IMG/VR virus record: IMGVR_UViG_2531839486_000019
Coordinates: 1-38,567 of that record
Source of the DNA: a virus
Lineage: Duplodnaviria > Heunggongvirae > Uroviricota > Caudoviricetes
Length of the DNA: 38,567 bases
Strand: one strand, 5' to 3'
The notes beneath the pieces are model-generated. The model was given only the letters and a program-made list of their open reading frames with translations, was not told the DNA's origin and ran no database searches. Position numbers and translations under genes: made by a program. Within the stretch, counting starts at the first letter, position 1. Every line of letters starts with the position of its first letter. Positions 29,433-33,512 of the stretch are shown here, one piece after another.

Positions 29433-30007
29433 TGGTTGCCTCCTTTGCGAAGCTGTTCAGCAATACTTACGCATATCTCTGCGCCTCTAATCAGCCCCGG
29501 AACGTTCTTGTTTGGCCCAACTTCACCATCAACAAAATCAATCATCGCGTTACGAGCCATATCCACGCCCTGCGCCCGTACTTCAGCCAGGAAAGCGTCG
29601 GTGGCTGGGGTGTCTGATTGCAGAGACTTTGCGCGATAGTCATTCCACCCCCTTGCATACATGGGATTAACTTGCACTCCATCTTTTACGCAATATGCCT
29701 GCCCTCCACGGTTGATAACCTTGATTTCGTCCATAGCGCCAGACTTCAGCCCCGCATTCTCCGCCGCCAGCGCCGAAAACTTCTCGTGTGCCAACTTAAC
29801 AGCCGCATCAGCCTGCTTAATTGACTCAATCGCTTTCTGCTGGTCTTCGGCCAGCTCATTAGCACGCACCAGTTGCACTTCCAGTTGCGTTGCCAAATCG
29901 CTGATCAGATTTGCCACACTGCGCATATCAACGGCACCACATTCTGCTTTCAGTTCCGAAGCCATCTCATGCCCGGCGGAAACTAACCCTTTGATATTAC
30001 TTTCCAT
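29429..30007 (-). CDS. hypothetical protein
   Basis: 192-aa ORF in the nin-like region. Confidence 0.5.
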   Translation of the reverse strand: MESNIKGLVSAGHEMASELKAECGAVDMRSVANLISDLATQLEVQLVRANELAEDQQKAIESIKQADAAVKLAHEKFSALAAENAGLKSGAMDEIKVINRGGQAYCVKDGVQVNPMYARGWNDYRAKSLQSDTPATDAFLAEVRAQGVDMARNAMIDFVDGEVGPNKNVPGLIRGAEICVSIAEQLRKGGNQ

Positions 30008-30068
30008 CTTTACCCTCGCTTATCCACATAACTTATTGATTACATTGATAACTAAAAAGATCGTCGAT

Positions 30069-30416
30069 TCAGAACTCTTCGATGTTCCAGCCGCCACCTG
30101 CTTTCTTTGGTTTAACCGTTACCCCGATGATTCGGAACGGATACTGATCTGCGGCTACTTTGGTTTTCACCCTGGCGTCGTCGGTCCAGAATCCCCCTTT
30201 CACTTCGTGCAGTTCCATCTCTCCGGTGGCGAGCATCACAGCGAAATCGGGCGTATAGAACGTGTTGTCAGCTAACCGCAGCTTGATACCCTCGAATCGA
30301 TACCAGGCGATTTCCCCTGCACGTTTACGCAGCTCAAGGTGCTGGCAATACGCAGATTCTGTTTTGTTCATCTGATCTGTTTTGAGTCGACCAAGAGCCT
30401 GTATCTGTTTTCTCAT
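30069..30416 (-). CDS. putative PD-(D/E)xK-type nuclease (small resolvase-like protein)
   Basis: YTPDF ... ELHEVKG motif spacing consistent with PD-(D/E)xK; ATG 30414-30416 with GAGGT SD lying inside dyad 30420-30434. Confidence 0.5.
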   Translation of the reverse strand: MRKQIQALGRLKTDQMNKTESAYCQHLELRKRAGEIAWYRFEGIKLRLADNTFYTPDFAVMLATGEMELHEVKGGFWTDDARVKTKVAADQYPFRIIGVTVKPKKAGGGWNIEEF

Positions 30417-30419
30417 GAT

Positions 30420-30496
30420 TTACCTCTGAGGTAATTAAAAACCACATAAGACACGAAATCAATAGATTTTAGAATATTTTATTACCTAACAGGTAA
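30420..30496 (+). promoter_or_regulatory. regulatory module between the P-like gene and nin genes: two operator-like dyads flanking AACCACATA
   Basis: TTACC-TCTGA-GGTAA (30420-30434); AACCACATA (30440-30448); TTACC-TAACA-GGTAA (30482-30496). Confidence 0.45.
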
Positions 30497-30533
30497 TTGT
30501 CGAGGCGTAAAAAAATGCGCTATCGCGCTGGTA

Positions 30534-31334
30534 TTACTTGATAAATCCTGCCGCCTTTCCTCGCCTGTATTCCTCCATCAGCCACTGCGCCGGTGTTATT
30601 CCACCAAGGGTGGCGGCGTTAGGCATGCACCCGAAACTTCGCCCTGGTGGATGGTAAACGTCTCTCCCTGTGTCCGGAGGTGTACTCATGGGTTCTGGCT
30701 TTGCCTGTATGCTGATCACCGGATCGGGTATCTGCTGTCCGGAAGCCACCTTTTTCGCCCAATCATCGAGCAGCCTGCGCGCGTGTTTCTCAACCTCAAT
30801 CTCGCTAAGCTGGCGCTGATACATTGCACGGCGGGTATCACATACGACCCAGTACATAACCGGATGTCGCCACGGGAATCTTTCGGGACCACCAGGATAT
30901 AAACTTTTTTCCTTGCTGTACCGGTTAAACTCCGCCATCACATCGTCAATGGTGACGCCAAGAACCATCTTGCTGTCTTTACACCACTTGATGAATTGCC
31001 CAGGCGACGGCCAGAACGGAGATTCACTGGCGCGGGCGTGGCGCATACCAGCAGAAACCTGTTCACGGGTTCGGATCCCCCCTTCGGCAAACGCAGCAAT
31101 CCACTGCTGTTTTGCAGCAACTTCCTGCTCTGGCGTCTTCAGGTTGGTTACCACTGCCGCCGGAAACAGTTGTTTCAGCTGTTTGAAAAGGGCATCAACA
31201 AGCCTCTCTGCTGACATGTTCACCACGTTATCATTGTTGGTGTACTGATGCTCATAACCTGACATGCGAGAAAGGGCTTCTCCGTCACGGTTTTGTATCG
31301 CGGTAAAAACGTTGTTCACAAGAAATCCTCCCAT
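30534..31334 (-). CDS. replication protein P-like (lambda P family helicase loader)
   Basis: QQWIAAFAEGGIRTREQVSAGMRHARASESPFWPSPGQFIKWCKD closely matches remembered lambda P region RQWVLAFRENGITTMEQVNAGMRVARRQNRPFLPSPGQFVAWCRE. Confidence 0.8.
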   Translation of the reverse strand: MGGFLVNNVFTAIQNRDGEALSRMSGYEHQYTNNDNVVNMSAERLVDALFKQLKQLFPAAVVTNLKTPEQEVAAKQQWIAAFAEGGIRTREQVSAGMRHARASESPFWPSPGQFIKWCKDSKMVLGVTIDDVMAEFNRYSKEKSLYPGGPERFPWRHPVMYWVVCDTRRAMYQRQLSEIEVEKHARRLLDDWAKKVASGQQIPDPVISIQAKPEPMSTPPDTGRDVYHPPGRSFGCMPNAATLGGITPAQWLMEEYRRGKAAGFIK

Positions 31335-32131
31335 GCTTCAGGGCTGTTCCAGTGCGGAACGTTGTTATCAGGTAATGTTGATTGCTTCTGTCTGCTAATC
31401 TGCAGCCTCCTTGCCAGCTTCTGCTCCCACTGTGCCTGATGGTATGCCTTACCCTCAGCCATCCAGTAAATTCTGAACTCTGCAAGTTCCTGTGCCGTTG
31501 GCAGACTGTCCAGGTAGATCCCCTGCAATGAGCTTTTCCGAAGAAAGTCATCTGATGGCTGCCATTGTTCATGCATGACAAATTTGCCTAATTGCCCTGG
31601 CCCACCAGGAGGAACAAAGTTATTCATCACGGCGTTGTTTGCGCCGGGGTCATGAGGCACAGAATCCCCGCTTTTTGTCCTGCTCTCCCTCTCTTGGTTA
31701 AATGACTGGTTATATGACTGGTTCTGGATCCCGTTTTTGGGATCATTCAACATCCCGTTTTTGGGATCATTCAACATCCCGTTTTTGGGTATATTCCCGT
31801 TTTCGGGTATATTCCCGTTTTCTGGTTCATTGCCCCCCTCCCGGTTGCCTTTAATGTTCCCGTTTTTGGTTATATTAAGAGAGAAAACCCGCACTCTTTT
31901 TGTCGCTCCCTTTCTATCTCCGGTATCTGAAATAAGCCCCATTTTCATGAGCGATATAAGCCCGGCCTGCACGGTTTTTTTATTCAGGCAAGTGTCTTTA
32001 ACGAGTCGTTCTATGCTGGGGTAGCAGAGGTTATATTCATCGGCTCTGTCAGCCATCGAGAGCAGTATGAGCTTTAATGATGAGCTGCCTGGATCTGTCT
32101 CCCAGGCCCAATCTGTTGCATGTCTGCTCAT
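31316..32131 (-). CDS. replication initiator (lambda O-like) with origin iterons inside the gene
   Basis: N-terminal HTH-like domain, central peptide repeats (NGNIPENGNIPKNGMLNDPKNGMLNDP) encoded by DNA iterons, followed by the P-like gene. Confidence 0.7.
   Translation of the reverse strand: MSRHATDWAWETDPGSSSLKLILLSMADRADEYNLCYPSIERLVKDTCLNKKTVQAGLISLMKMGLISDTGDRKGATKRVRVFSLNITKNGNIKGNREGGNEPENGNIPENGNIPKNGMLNDPKNGMLNDPKNGIQNQSYNQSFNQERESRTKSGDSVPHDPGANNAVMNNFVPPGGPGQLGKFVMHEQWQPSDDFLRKSSLQGIYLDSLPTAQELAEFRIYWMAEGKAYHQAQWEQKLARRLQISRQKQSTLPDNNVPHWNSPEAWEDFL
31703..31890. repeat. putative origin of replication: iteron array plus AT-rich tract
   Basis: ATGACTGGTT x2 (31703-31724); GGATCATTCAACATCCCGTTTTTG x2 (31741-31788) with partial copy at 31727-31740; GGTATATTCCCGTTTTC x2 (31789-31825); CCCGTTTT core six times; AT-rich 31871-31890. 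Confidence 0.65.
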
Positions 32132-32146
32132 GATTAATCTCCGCTA

Positions 32147-32347
32147 TCAGCTTGAATGTTGTGGGGGGGAATTAATCATGATCTGCTTAATCTCTGCCCT
32201 GATGCGACGGTTTGATTCCATGGTGCACTCAACACAGTGTCCGTTGTAAACCCAGCGTTCACTGTCATGTCCGTGCTTACATGGTTTTCCGGTGTAGTAG
32301 CGTTTAAGTCCGCGCTTTGCGGCATCAATACGTGTAATGATTTCCAT
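32147..32347 (-). CDS. small zinc-ribbon protein (position of lambda cII; function unknown)
   Basis: ATG 32345-32347 (MEIITRIDAAKRGLKRYYTGKPCKHGHDSERWVYNGHCVEC); my reading of the displayed bases at 32402-32410 does not reproduce the first three residues of the track ORF, so the longer start is not used. Confidence 0.4.
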   Translation of the reverse strand: MEIITRIDAAKRGLKRYYTGKPCKHGHDSERWVYNGHCVECTMESNRRIRAEIKQIMINSPPQHSS

Positions 32348-32426
32348 GGTAAGCCCTGTTATTAGTATTGGGATTACGGTTATTTTGTGCTGACACAAAA
32401 AAAAGATCAACCAAATTTGGTTTTTT

Positions 32427-32441
32427 ATTACCTTTGAGGTG
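32427..32441. promoter_or_regulatory. operator-like dyad between the Cro-like gene and the next early gene
   Basis: TTACC-TTTGA-GGTGA; preceded by perfect palindrome AACCAAATTTGGTT. Confidence 0.4.
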
Positions 32442-32497
32442 AGAATAGATATGAAAAGACCGCCGGATGACGGTCTACAGAGGGTTGTGGCTGGATA

Positions 32498-32728
32498 TCA
32501 TGAGTAGAAGAAGTATGCCAGTTCTGCTTTTGAGCGCAGCCATTGTCTTGTTTTACAGGCTTTAAAAAGCCCATTCATCAATACCTTACCTGGCATTTTG
32601 CGCTTACCTGTTAAGTGAGTCTGGATATAGTGACTCGTCGTTCCGGCTTCCTGTGCGAAGGCTTCACGCTCATCCGGAGTAAGTGCAAGCCAGTGCTTTT
32701 TGAAATCGAAATGTCCGTTATCGCTCAT
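32498..32728 (-). CDS. Cro-like HTH regulator (YdaS/Cro family)
   Basis: 76 aa, ATG 32726-32728; HTH-like segment DEREAFAQEAGTTSHYIQTHLTGKR; divergent from the CI-like gene. Confidence 0.6.
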   Translation of the reverse strand: MSDNGHFDFKKHWLALTPDEREAFAQEAGTTSHYIQTHLTGKRKMPGKVLMNGLFKACKTRQWLRSKAELAYFFYS

Positions 32729-32773
32729 AGCTATTGCCTGATATTTATTTCAGATAATAAATATTCACCCATA

Positions 32774-32827
32774 AGGTAACAAAAATCAAGGATAGTTACC
32801 TATGGGGTGCATTTACCTGTTGGGTAA
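32774..32827. promoter_or_regulatory. right operator-like region between the divergent Cro-like and CI-like genes
   Basis: inverted repeat AGGTAAC-N14-GTTACCT (32774-32801) and dyad TTACC-TGTTG-GGTAA (32813-32827). Confidence 0.45.
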
Positions 32828-32882
32828 TATTGCTTTAAATTGAATCATCTACTGATTCATATATGAGGCGATTTTCCAGAAA

Positions 32883-33467
32883 ATGAAAAGTATCCAGGAC
32901 GTCCGCAGGCAAAATCTCAACGACTTGATCGACCGTGAATTCAATGGTGTTCAGACGCGGATGGCAGAAAAACTTGGAACTCAGGCAAATCTGGTAAACC
33001 GCTGGGCTCTTGGCAAGAAGGTTATCGGCGACCAGGTTGCGCGAAAAATTGAAGCTGCCGCCAATAAACCCCGTAACTGGCTTGATATCGATCGCTCGCT
33101 TTCTCAGGAAGGTTTTCAGCCTGTCGGCCCAAGCGACATTGGTCAGCTGGCGGCTCACAACCTGGAACGCTGGATGAGCGAAAGCCGCGACCTTTCAACA
33201 CAGGGAAAACTTCACCGCGCATCCGGCGTCGCCCAGGTGACAATCAGCCGCCTGTTAAACAATGAGGTCAGCGTTTCCATTTCCACCCTGGAGAATGTTG
33301 CATCTGCATTCGGGCGTCACGGATATGAACTACTGATTCACCCGCACGACCCTGCAACTATCAACTATGACCGCTCGCGCTACGCATTATTACCTGAAAC
33401 CGAGAAAGCAAAGATCGAAAGTTACATTGAATTTGTCATCAACCAGAACGAAAAAAACAAACAATAA
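32883..33467 (+). CDS. CI-like repressor candidate with HTH domain(s) and no recognisable LexA/S24 cleavage domain
   Basis: XRE-type HTH (GVQTRMAEKLGTQANLVNRWALGKK) and a second HTH-like stretch; no Ala-Gly/Ser-Lys peptidase motifs seen; divergent from Cro-like gene. Confidence 0.55.
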   Translation: MKSIQDVRRQNLNDLIDREFNGVQTRMAEKLGTQANLVNRWALGKKVIGDQVARKIEAAANKPRNWLDIDRSLSQEGFQPVGPSDIGQLAAHNLERWMSESRDLSTQGKLHRASGVAQVTISRLLNNEVSVSISTLENVASAFGRHGYELLIHPHDPATINYDRSRYALLPETEKAKIESYIEFVINQNEKNKQ

Positions 33468-33488
33468 AATCATATTTTTCAGTAAGTA

Positions 33489-33512
33489 AGCCGCCAAATG
33501 GCGGCTTTTTTT
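33489..33512 (+). terminator. rho-independent terminator after the CI-like gene
   Basis: stem agccgcc / ggcggct with aaat loop, then TTTTTT. Confidence 0.65.

What the first reader, a model, noticed from the sequence alone, without database searches (positions are those of the whole stretch)
31703..31890. Replication origin iterons embedded in the O-like initiator gene
Direct repeats (24-bp x2, 17-bp x2, CCCGTTTT core six times) plus an AT-rich tract lie inside the coding sequence of the initiator and are mirrored in the protein as NGNIP/KNGMLNDP repeats. This is the lambda arrangement of ori inside gene O. The adjacent gene is a clear lambda P homologue, which implies DnaB recruitment in the lambda manner.
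Basis: partly seen in the sequence, partly recalled or inferred. Interest (0 to 1): 0.5.

Follow-up and report, generated by a model that had tools for sequence, protein, structure and literature searches.

The report
Phage replication origin inside initiator gene
The repeats are almost certainly the replication origin of a phiV10-like E. coli phage, sitting inside its own initiator gene as in phage lambda; this is an ordinary, well-known layout, although the initiator is built from different protein domains than lambda O.

Summary
Six copies of CCCGTTTT occur only at 31730-31866 (1.15 expected), as 24-bp and 18-bp tandem units. They lie inside a minus-strand gene (31316-32131) and encode ENGNIP/KNGMLNDP repeats.

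Each unit is a dyad-symmetric 16-mer (ATCCC-AAAAAC-GGGAT). Its core, CCCGAAAACGGG, matches the annotated gp15-binding iterons of phage phi80.

In 27 diverse relatives the motif is about 550-fold enriched in the same linker. It is read in all three frames, its arms co-vary, and it stays far more conserved than silent sites. Copy number ranges from 4 to 11 among close relatives.

A second repeat class, the 12/13-mer AACCAGTCAT (31695-31727), follows the last iteron across the family. The "AT-rich tract" is weak (61-70% AT).

The adjacent gene is a true lambda P homologue.

The initiator is O-like in layout only. It has a winged-helix HTH_36 N-domain, a disordered iteron-encoded linker, and a C-domain homologous to E. 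coli DnaT with its ssDNA-binding residues kept. This matches the published DopC/DopE architecture.

Verdict: a lambda-style origin, a new member of a known kind, of low to moderate interest. Origin function is inferred, not shown.

The parts
31316..32131 (-). Initiator gene (271 aa). aa 1-88 form a winged-helix HTH_36 domain. aa 90-183 form a disordered linker encoded by the origin repeats. aa 180-265 form a DnaT-type C-terminal ssDNA-binding domain.
   Evidence: ORF. Pfam HTH_36 1.8e-10 and DnaT 1.2e-15. PHROG 1032 'replication initiation protein' 1.4e-107. AF2 model: pLDDT above 94 for aa 1-80 and below 50 for 97-183. PDB DnaT chains at 6.5e-21.
31857..31872 (-). Iteron 1 (sense TAACC-AAAAAC-GGGAA), set 45 bp upstream of the main array.
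31812..31827 (-). Iteron 2 (sense AACCA-GAAAAC-GGGAA). Its left arm is degenerate in this window; most relatives have AACCC.
31794..31809 (-). Iteron 3 (sense TACCC-GAAAAC-GGGAA). Its core is identical to the phi80 gp15-binding site TTCCCGAAAACGGGAA.
31776..31791 (-). Iteron 4 (sense TACCC-AAAAAC-GGGAT).
31752..31767 (-). Iteron 5 (sense ATCCC-AAAAAC-GGGAT), with perfect 5+5 dyad arms and 24-bp spacing.
31728..31743 (-). Iteron 6 (sense ATCCC-AAAAAC-GGGAT), the last iteron, next to the 12-mer repeats.
31695..31727 (-). Tandem 12-mers (sense AGAACCAGTCAT / ATAACCAGTCAT / TTAACCA), 61% AT. This is the second conserved repeat class and a candidate unwinding or helicase-loading element. That role is inferred.
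   Evidence: TRF period 12 x2.4. The same element follows the last iteron at fixed offsets (+6, +13, +12) in 19 of 27 diverse relatives and is read in two frames. The 30-nt block is 77-93% identical where silent sites have decayed to about 30%.
31665..31696 (-). Purine-rich tract on the sense strand (AAGAGAGGGAGAGCAGGACAAAAAGCGGGGA), just distal to the 12-mers. It occupies the position of lambda's A-rich tract but is not AT-rich here.
   Evidence: read; composition; A-rich tracts at this position in Vibrio, Pseudoalteromonas and Acinetobacter relatives
30534..31334 (-). Lambda P-type helicase loader gene (266 aa), overlapping the 3' end of the initiator gene by 19 nt.
   Evidence: Pfam PF06992 2.2e-56. 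31% identity to lambda P at 6e-35. 35% identity to phi80 gp14. PDB 8v9t/6bbm lambda P at 8.8e-31.
32754..32782 (-). pR-like promoter candidate (TTGTTA-17-TATTAT) between the divergent repressor and cro-like genes. It would drive transcription through the cro-like gene, the small ORF, the initiator/ori and P.
   Evidence: consensus scan only; gene order

Best explanation
The window is a phiV10-like (Uetakevirus) temperate phage of E. coli, and 31695-31872 is its replication origin, embedded in the initiator gene.

Proposed mechanism:
1. Dimers of the initiator's N-terminal winged-helix domain bind the six dyad-symmetric iterons (NNCCC-RAAAAC-GGGNN, spaced 18-24 bp) and form an O-some-like nucleoprotein complex.
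2. Each bound subunit carries a DnaT-type C-terminal domain on a roughly 90-residue flexible linker, which the iterons themselves encode.
3. These domains, held at high local concentration, capture and coat single-stranded DNA in the adjacent 12-mer / purine-rich region, as the E. coli DnaT C-domain filaments on ssDNA.
4. Together with the initiator's C-terminal tail they receive the complex of host DnaB with the phage lambda-P-type loader.
5. Early transcription from the pR-like promoter runs through the origin, as in lambda.

Shown here: the repeats, their dyad symmetry, their DNA-level conservation and covariation, the domain homologies, and the gene order. Inferred: binding, unwinding site, ssDNA coating, P contact and DnaB loading.
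For: Statistics: all six cores lie in one 140-bp stretch.

Identity with a known origin: the phi80 record annotates gp15-binding sites TTCCCGAAAACGGGAA inside gene 15. The window's 18-bp iterons carry the same CCCGAAAACGGGAA, read in a different frame (FPKTGK versus PENGNI).

Family-wide DNA selection, from 27 diverse loci in Enterobacterales, Vibrio, Pseudoalteromonas, Acinetobacter and others:
- The core CC[AG]AA[AT][ATG][CT]GG (consensus CCRAAAACGG) occurs at 10.9 per kb in the linker, against 0.02 per kb elsewhere in the same loci.
- 23 of 27 loci have 3 or more cores.
- In 13 of 27 the cores fall in 2 or 3 reading frames, giving PKTE, QKRN and KNG peptides from the same DNA.
- Dyad arms co-vary by lineage: ATCCC/GGGAT, TTACC/GGTAA, GTACC/GGTAC, CCCCC/GGGGG.
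- The last iteron plus the first 12-mer is 77-93% identical, while N-domain third-codon positions are 26-32% identical in nine of the ten relatives that could be aligned without gaps, and 50% in the closest one.

Modularity: Edwardsiella phage GF-2 joins this N-domain and these iterons to a lambda-O C-terminus followed by P. Acinetobacter phages join them to other C-domains followed by DnaB-like helicases.

Copy-number polymorphism in close relatives: 4-9 cores and 31 linker architectures in 79 IMG/VR loci. One protein cluster has 7 KNGMLNDP units, about 11 cores by my count of its peptide units.

Protein evidence:
- AF2 gives a confident winged helix at aa 1-88 and a disordered linker at 90-183.
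- The C-domain hits E. coli DnaT structures at 6.5e-21. It keeps the ssDNA-binding residues Y127, W128, K133, K143 and R146, and has F135Y (residues from PMC4132743).
- The DnaT C-domain filaments on ssDNA and marks the helicase-loading site (PMC13377028).
- P homology is covered.

Background on lambda and Stx-phage origins, including 4 versus 6 iterons and O binding ssDNA, comes from PMC7466680.
Against: - No experiment shows replication from this fragment or binding by this protein. I found no paper in the held library describing the origin of phiV10-type phages.
- There is no strongly AT-rich tract next to the array. The lambda-equivalent side is 61% AT, and the least stable DNA in the neighbourhood lies elsewhere, at 30455-30484 and 32738-32770.
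- The initiator is not detectably similar to lambda O or phi80 gp15 by BLASTP.
- Profile evidence for N-domain homology is weak: hhalign probability 4%, and Phage_rep_O hit by 2 of 28 relatives at E 0.14.
- Tandem in-frame repeats in a disordered linker could in principle expand by slippage without any cis function.
Confidence: 0.82

Rival explanations
1. The repeats are genuine initiator-binding sites, but they act mainly in control (autoregulation, titration or handcuffing of the initiator, or exclusion of related phages). Strand opening and helicase loading would then happen at a separate AT-rich site, such as the intergenic DNA just beyond P or upstream of the initiator operon.
For: The most AT-rich DNA nearby is outside the gene: 30455-30484 is 87% AT, and 32340-32450 is 68% AT. 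Lambda-type iteron arrays on plasmids are known to inhibit related phages (abstract of PMC3349717, listed). Stx-phage origins carry extra iterons that are only weakly bound (PMC7466680).
Against: A conserved second repeat class sits at a fixed offset from the last iteron in 19 of 27 relatives. In several it is followed by an A-rich tract, which is the geometry of an iteron-plus-unwinding-element origin. Lambda and phi80 have the same order within the gene. The AT-rich intergenic spots coincide with promoter- and terminator-like signals (and the annotation).
Confidence: 0.1
2. The repeats are only a slippage-prone coding repeat in a disordered protein linker, a peptide-level or neutral feature with no role as DNA.
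For: The units are multiples of 3 (12, 18 and 24 bp). Copy number varies freely among near-identical prophages. The encoded segment is predicted to be disordered.
Against: The same 10-12-nt core occurs in all three reading frames within single genes, and in a different frame in phi80. The units have dyad symmetry with covarying arms, which has no meaning for a peptide. Nucleotide identity of the block greatly exceeds that of the best-conserved coding DNA. The motif is about 550-fold enriched over the flanks.
Confidence: 0.04
3. The repeats encode a structured RNA element or a terminator acting within the early transcript.
For: The consensus scan flags two 'terminator-like' hairpins at 31738-31781 on the plus strand.
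Against: Those hairpins are simply the right arm of one iteron pairing with the left arm of the next. They lie on the strand antisense to the gene. The count of such sites does not exceed shuffles: 4 found against 3.1 expected. No Rfam family matches at E up to 1 in 30000-33500 apart from a chance snoRNA hit elsewhere.
Confidence: 0.02

Closest known systems
Phage lambda ori-lambda with genes O and P
   Same: - The origin lies in the middle of the initiator gene, in the segment between the N-terminal DNA-binding domain and the C-terminal domain.
- It contains several dyad-symmetric iterons with an A-tract centre (lambda ATCCCTCAAAACGAGGGA) spaced about 20-24 bp apart.
- The order is iterons first, then the unwinding region, in the direction of early transcription.
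- The next gene is a P-family helicase loader.
- Iteron number varies among relatives, 4 in lambda and 6 in Stx phages.
   Different: - There are 6 nt between the CC and GG of the arms, against 9 in lambda.
- There is no roughly 80% AT tract.
- The N-domain is Pfam HTH_36, not PF04492.
- The C-domain is DnaT-type, not the lambda-O C-domain.
Phage phi80 origin in gene 15 (gp15/gp14)
   Same: The iteron core is nearly identical (TTCCCGAAAACGGGAA) and sits inside the initiator gene. The downstream P-type loader is 35% identical to the window's P.
   Different: gp15 is a PF04492 protein with a lambda-type C-terminus and shows no BLASTP similarity to the window's initiator. The iterons are spaced 20-21 bp apart and read in another frame.
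DopC/DopE of Cellvibrionales and Oceanospirillales (Brezellec et al. 2017, PMC5509034)
   Same: The two-gene architecture is the same: an HTH_36 N-domain plus a DnaT C-terminal motif, followed by a lambda-P homologue.
   Different: DopCE is a domesticated chromosomal pair in which the authors found no iterons. The window's pair is in a phage and keeps a full iteron array, so it looks like the mobile counterpart of DopCE.
E. coli primosomal protein DnaT (C-terminal domain)
   Same: aa 180-265 align to DnaT 85-170 at E 6.5e-21, with the ssDNA-binding residues conserved.
   Different: DnaT is targeted by PriA/PriB at abandoned forks, and its N-domain is an oligomerisation module. Here the targeting module is a sequence-specific winged helix bound to iterons.
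Iteron plasmids (RK2 TrfA, F RepE, pPS10 RepA, RepA_N of pSK41)
   Same: These use winged-helix initiators that bind direct repeats next to short tandem 13-mer-like repeats in the unwinding element. Foldseek lists the pSK41-type Rep-DNA complex 5kbj among weak winged-helix matches.
   Different: Plasmid origins are intergenic and their initiators have different domain sets. The fold matches are only generic, with E of 0.01 or worse.

Membership tests
Lambdoid origin embedded in the initiator gene (ori-lambda type) | Array of three or more direct repeats (iterons) with internal dyad symmetry, inside the initiator coding sequence. | tested here: met
   Six sites at 31728-31872, two with perfect 5+5 arms, and none elsewhere in the window.
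Lambdoid origin embedded in the initiator gene (ori-lambda type) | The repeats lie in the segment between the N-terminal DNA-binding domain and the C-terminal partner-binding domain. | tested here: met
   AF2 shows a winged helix at aa 1-88 and a disordered stretch at 90-183. The iterons encode aa 87-135.
Lambdoid origin embedded in the initiator gene (ori-lambda type) | An AT-rich unwinding region flanks the iterons on the promoter-distal side. | tested here: inconclusive
   The distal flank is 61% AT and not a stability minimum. It does carry conserved 12/13-mer repeats, and several relatives have an A-rich tract there.
Lambdoid origin embedded in the initiator gene (ori-lambda type) | The initiator binds the iterons, and the fragment replicates when the initiator and loader are supplied. 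| not testable with these tools
   This needs EMSA or footprinting and a plasmid replication assay.
Lambdoid origin embedded in the initiator gene (ori-lambda type) | The origin lies in the early operon downstream of the cro-side promoter, followed by the helicase-loader gene. | tested here: met
   The order is repressor (+), then cro-like, small ORF, initiator and P (all -). There is a promoter-like site at 32782-32754. Promoter activity was not tested.
Lambda O protein family (Pfam PF04492 N-domain plus lambda-O C-domain) | The N-terminal domain matches PF04492 above its threshold. | tested here: not met
   The window protein gives no PF04492 hit, even at E up to 1. It hits HTH_36 at 1.8e-10. 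Only 2 of 28 relatives touch PF04492, at E 0.14. Lambda O and phi80 gp15 hit it at 6e-36 and 6e-25.
Lambda O protein family (Pfam PF04492 N-domain plus lambda-O C-domain) | Lambda-O-type C-terminal domain. | tested here: not met
   The C-domain is DnaT-type. BLASTP against lambda O is not significant. GF-2 shows what a true lambda-O C-terminus on this N-domain looks like.
Lambda O protein family (Pfam PF04492 N-domain plus lambda-O C-domain) | Remote (superfamily-level) homology of the N-domain to that of lambda O. | tested here: inconclusive
   Both N-domains hit PHROG 678 and 345 over overlapping profile columns. hhalign against a single lambda O sequence aligns 42-85 with 74-117, but at 4% probability. 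HHpred in PMC5509034 assigns HTH_36 to lambda O.
Lambda P helicase-loader family (PF06992) | Full-length match to the P profile and to solved lambda P. | tested here: met
   PF06992 at 2.2e-56 over positions 2-162 of 162. 31% identity to lambda P. PDB 8v9t at 8.8e-31.
DnaT C-terminal ssDNA-binding domain (PF17948) | Profile match, plus conservation of residues shown to bind ssDNA. | tested here: met
   PF17948 at 1.2e-15. PDB 9zbt, 6aep and 4ou6 at about 1e-20. Y127, W128, K133, K143 and R146 are identical, and F135 is Y (alignment; residues).
DopC/DopE-type pair | HTH_36 plus DnaT_C protein encoded next to a P homologue. | tested here: met
DopC/DopE-type pair | Domesticated: resident chromosomal context, with no iterons. 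| tested here: not met
   The context is a phage, 98% identical to phiV10-type phages, and the iterons are present.

The most novel reading that the evidence does not exclude
The HTH_36-type initiators and their embedded origins may form one large family with a fixed origin grammar that has not been described. There are about 3,700 clusters at 50% identity across Gammaproteobacteria phages and satellites.

The grammar would be dyad iterons, followed at a fixed offset by tandem 12/13-mers (GAACCAGTCAT). Those 12/13-mers would be a sequence-specific unwinding element, bound as single strands by the initiator. In the phiV10 branch the binding would be by a DnaT-type filament.

That would make this a DnaA-like two-mode initiator. 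It would also make it the mobile ancestor of the cellular DnaT and DopC proteins.
Probability: 0.25. Interest if true: 0.55.

Novelty: new member of a known kind. Interest (0 to 1): 0.3.

Why it matters
It places the origin of a common group of E. coli prophages; related sequence occurs in about 10% of complete E. coli genomes (537 of 5426, of which 387 cover at least 80% of the query). That is useful for annotation, for building phage-derived replicons, and for reading induction sequencing profiles.

More broadly, the initiator's origin-binding module (N-domain plus iterons plus 12/13-mers) travels as one unit. It is recombined with different helicase-recruitment modules: a lambda-O C-domain, a DnaT C-domain, or others paired with DnaB-like helicases. 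The DnaT-type variant is a tractable phage model for how a DnaT C-domain might hand ssDNA to a helicase-loader complex. It is also a model for where DnaT and DopC came from.

None of this would surprise a phage-replication specialist.

Tried and rejected
- BLASTP of the initiator against lambda O and phi80 gp15 found nothing significant.
- hhalign of the N-domain family against a single lambda O sequence gave a sensible register but only 4% probability. I did not build a deep lambda-O alignment.
- PDB sequence search: the N-domain profile found nothing, and lambda O itself has no solved structure.
- Foldseek of the AF2 model against the PDB gave only generic winged-helix matches at E of 0.01 or worse (MarR, Fur, RepA_N), so there is no specific family assignment.
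- Duplex-stability and AT profiles do not single out the origin.
- DnaA boxes: three in the whole window, which is chance level. The nearest is at 30020.
- Rfam: no relevant match.
- The promoter and terminator scan is at chance level. The 'terminators' inside the array are artefacts of the iteron dyads.
- Literature searches for phiV10 or epsilon15 origins, and for the repeat sequences themselves, returned nothing relevant.
A 9-sequence alignment worked.
- The viral-contig scan returned only near-identical loci. These were useful for copy-number statistics but not for diversity.
- The perfect linkage of the initiator C-tail class with the P N-terminus class cannot be separated from simple physical linkage, because the genes overlap. 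I do not count it as evidence of contact.
Full report
**What is in the sequence**

The interval lies in a minus-strand ORF, 31316-32131 (271 aa). It is followed by a second minus-strand ORF, 30534-31334 (266 aa), with a 19-nt overlap.

CCCGTTTT occurs six times in the 38.6-kb window, all between 31730 and 31866. Dinucleotide shuffles give 1.15 on average and never six. A 19-nt degenerate pattern finds the same six sites and nothing else.

TRF and the repeat finder report three tandem units:
- a perfect 24-bp unit x2.6 at 31728-31789;
- an 18-bp unit x2.8 at 31777-31826;

The encoded peptide, ...EPENGNIPENGNIPKNGMLNDPKNGMLNDPKNGIQNQSYNQSFNQ..., mirrors the DNA repeats.

The AT-rich tract is real but modest. 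The 40 bp at 31848-31887, around iteron 1, is 70% AT (98th percentile of the window). The 12-mer region is 61% AT. The least stable DNA nearby is intergenic.

**Anatomy of a unit**

On the sense (minus) strand each unit is a 16-mer with 5-nt inverted arms around an A-tract. Iterons 5 and 6 are ATCCC-AAAAAC-GGGAT with perfect arms, and iteron 3 is TACCC-GAAAAC-GGGAA. Spacings are 45, 18, 18, 24 and 24 bp.

Lambda's iterons (ATCCCTCAAAACGAGGGA) follow the same theme with arms 3 bp further apart. The phi80 record annotates four gp15-binding sites inside gene 15, and their consensus is TTCCCGAAAACGGGAA. That is the window's 18-bp iteron core, but phi80 reads it as FPKTGK where the window reads PENGNI.

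**What the window is**

The two genes are 98% identical to Escherichia phages EC.W1-9, phiv142-3 and phiV10 (genus Uetakevirus). Related sequence occurs in 537 of 5426 complete E. coli genomes. The phiV10 record annotates the genes as "replication initiation protein (DnaT family)" and "replication protein P", and annotates no origin.

**The proteins**

The downstream gene is a clear lambda P homologue:
- PF06992 at 2.2e-56;
- 31% identical to lambda P and 35% to phi80 gp14;
- 8.8e-31 to solved lambda P.

The initiator is not a lambda O family member. Pfam gives HTH_36 (aa 18-67, 1.8e-10) and the DnaT DNA-binding domain (aa 184-252, 1.2e-15). Lambda O and phi80 gp15 instead hit Phage_rep_O. BLASTP against both is not significant.

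An AlphaFold2 model built from 66 family members gives a confident winged helix for aa 1-88 (pLDDT above 94). The linker at aa 90-183 is disordered, and the C-domain is helical. Foldseek finds only generic winged-helix folds.

The C-domain aligns to E. coli DnaT residues 85-170 at 6.5e-21. It keeps the residues whose mutation impairs ssDNA binding: Y127, W128, K133, K143 and R146 are identical, and F135 is Y (PMC4132743). The DnaT C-domain filaments on lagging-strand ssDNA and marks the helicase-loading site (PMC13377028).

Evidence for a remote link between the N-domain and lambda O's is suggestive only:
- both hit PHROG profiles 678 and 345 over overlapping columns;
- hhalign puts the recognition helix and wing in register, but at 4% probability;
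- Brezellec et al. report HTH_36 in lambda O by HHpred (PMC5509034).

That paper also describes DopC (HTH_36 plus DnaT_C) next to DopE (a P homologue) as a domesticated lambdoid pair without iterons. The window encodes the same architecture in a phage, with the iterons intact.

**Are the repeats selected as DNA?**

I collected five annotated phage relatives. These are Edwardsiella GF-2, Vibrio Her, Acinetobacter Ab105-2phi and AP22, and PPompW. I added 22 usable loci from diverse genomes. Every one has the N-domain at the N-terminus, and in 23 of 27 an array of 3 or more iteron cores follows immediately.

- *Enrichment.* The core CC[AG]AA[AT][ATG][CT]GG (consensus CCRAAAACGG) is at 10.9 per kb in the linker, against 0.02 per kb on both strands of the rest of the loci.
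- *Reading frames.* In 13 of 27 loci the cores fall in two or three frames. Upstream copies spaced 17 nt apart yield PKTE, QKRN and KNG from the same DNA.
- *Covariation.* The arms co-vary by lineage: ATCCC/GGGAT, TTACC/GGTAA, GTACC/GGTAC, TACCC/GGGTC and CCCCC/GGGGG.
- *Conservation.* N-domain third-codon positions are 26-32% identical to the window in nine of the ten relatives that aligned without gaps, and 50% in the closest one. The 30-nt block of last iteron plus first 12-mer stays 77-93% identical.

These four results are hard to explain for a peptide repeat and are what one expects for dimer-binding sites.

**A second repeat class**

Directly after the last iteron, 19 of 27 loci carry (G/T)AAYC motifs at offsets +6, +19 and +31. 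These are tandem 12/13-mers of consensus AGAACCAGTCAT.

In Vibrio phage Her the sequence is CAGAACCAGTCATTAGAACCAGTCATAGAACCA. The same 11-mer is read once as NQS and once as EPV, which produces the family's conserved QNQSLEPVIEP peptide. The window has AGAACCAGTCAT / ATAACCAGTCAT / TTAACCA at 31695-31727.

In several relatives (V. salinus, Pseudoalteromonas, Acinetobacter) an A-rich tract follows. In the window a purine-rich but GC-moderate tract follows instead. I take this element as the likeliest unwinding or loading site. That is an inference.

**Modularity and polymorphism**

GF-2 fuses this N-domain and iteron array to a lambda-O C-terminus followed by P. The Acinetobacter phages fuse it to other C-domains followed by DnaB-like helicases. 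Only 10 of 66 family representatives carry the DnaT domain.

A library-wide search with aa 1-93 finds 3,688 cluster representatives at E up to 1e-3. Among the 120 full-length proteins in the top 150, 91 show P(K/E)(N/I/T/F)G motifs in the linker and 72 show two or more.

Among 79 near-identical IMG/VR loci the core count ranges from 4 to 9 (mode 6), with 31 linker architectures. Other relatives range from 263 to 311 aa. One has seven KNGMLNDP units, which I count as about 11 cores from its peptide units.

Two initiator C-tail classes are perfectly linked to two P N-terminus classes in the 59 loci where both genes could be read. The genes overlap, so this may only reflect linkage.

**Mechanism, and what is not shown**

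The most likely mechanism is as follows. N-domain dimers occupy the iterons. The tethered DnaT-type C-domains capture ssDNA in the adjacent 12-mer / purine-rich region. The P-DnaB complex is recruited there, and early transcription passes through the origin. Only the sequence features and homologies are shown; binding, opening and loading are inferred.

No DnaA box, Rfam family or above-chance promoter or terminator signal bears on the region. I found no paper in the held library describing this origin.

**Verdict**

1. The initiator is O-like in layout only. It combines an HTH_36 N-domain with a DnaT-type C-domain, the DopC architecture.
2. The AT-rich tract is weak.
3. A conserved 12/13-mer repeat is part of the origin.

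This is a new member of a known kind and is of low to moderate interest.

Noticed in passing
window 31727, 31741, 31765: Each 24-bp iteron unit carries a GATC (Dam) site, and there is one more at the junction with the 12-mers. That gives three GATC in 40 bp. The count should scale with copy number in relatives that have up to seven 24-bp units. It may matter for SeqA or methylation control of initiation, or it may simply follow from the GGGAT-C arm.
   Followed up: partly
L016-L095 (IMG/VR loci); L006 and L007; window 31316-31400: The initiator C-terminus comes in two forms: ...NVPHWNSPEAWEDFL, and ...LDWHNTDWIDEVWDEINSRTS, which resembles the NTDW tail of lambda O. They are perfectly linked to two different P N-termini (MGGFLVNNVF... 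and MRCGMKSTPELL...), while the C-terminal two-thirds of P stays constant. This is consistent with an initiator-tail to P N-terminus contact, but it cannot be separated from linkage.
   Followed up: partly
window 32147-32410 (minus strand): A small Cys/His-rich ORF (GKPCKHGHDSERWVYNGHCVEC) lies between the cro-like gene and the initiator. It is conserved in phiV10 (p42) and epsilon15 (p40). It matches PHROG 1081, of unknown function, with a faint match to endonuclease VII-like zinc modules.
   Followed up: no
L118 2001-2507 (Halieaceae bacterium GM1-29): A 168-aa HTH_36 protein with no C-domain at all still carries six iteron cores (CCCCC-RAAAAC-GGGNN) spaced 16-23 nt apart, in all three frames. 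It sits next to an integrase fragment and AP2/HNH-like and zinc-finger ORFs, which looks like a small satellite or integrative element with a minimal initiator and origin.
   Followed up: partly
L014 (Salmonella phage SPN1S, same genus Uetakevirus): Its replication protein shares only the DnaT-type C-domain with the window's initiator. It has a different N-terminal half, no iterons of this type, and no annotated P gene downstream. The origin-binding module has therefore been swapped within the genus.
   Followed up: no
L003 (Escherichia phage BP9, PP488543.1 134937-136510); H6 (phage PH444): A 138-kb Vequintavirus record and a 115-kb record each contain a phiV10-type initiator and P segment at about 97% identity near one end. 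This probably reflects prophage contamination or a chimeric assembly in those records.
   Followed up: no
window 30420-30500 and 30020-30028: The most AT-rich 30 bp of the neighbourhood (30455-30484, 87% AT) lies just downstream of P. It has two promoter-like sites on opposite strands. In the phiV10 record a putative rho-independent terminator is annotated just downstream of P. The only consensus DnaA box nearby (TTATCCACA) is at 30020-30028, and the number of such boxes in the window is at chance level.
   Followed up: partly
window 31738-31781 (plus strand): The terminator scan flags two hairpins followed by T-runs inside the iteron array. They are formed by the right arm of one iteron and the left arm of the next, so they are artefacts of the dyad repeats rather than terminators.
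   Followed up: yes
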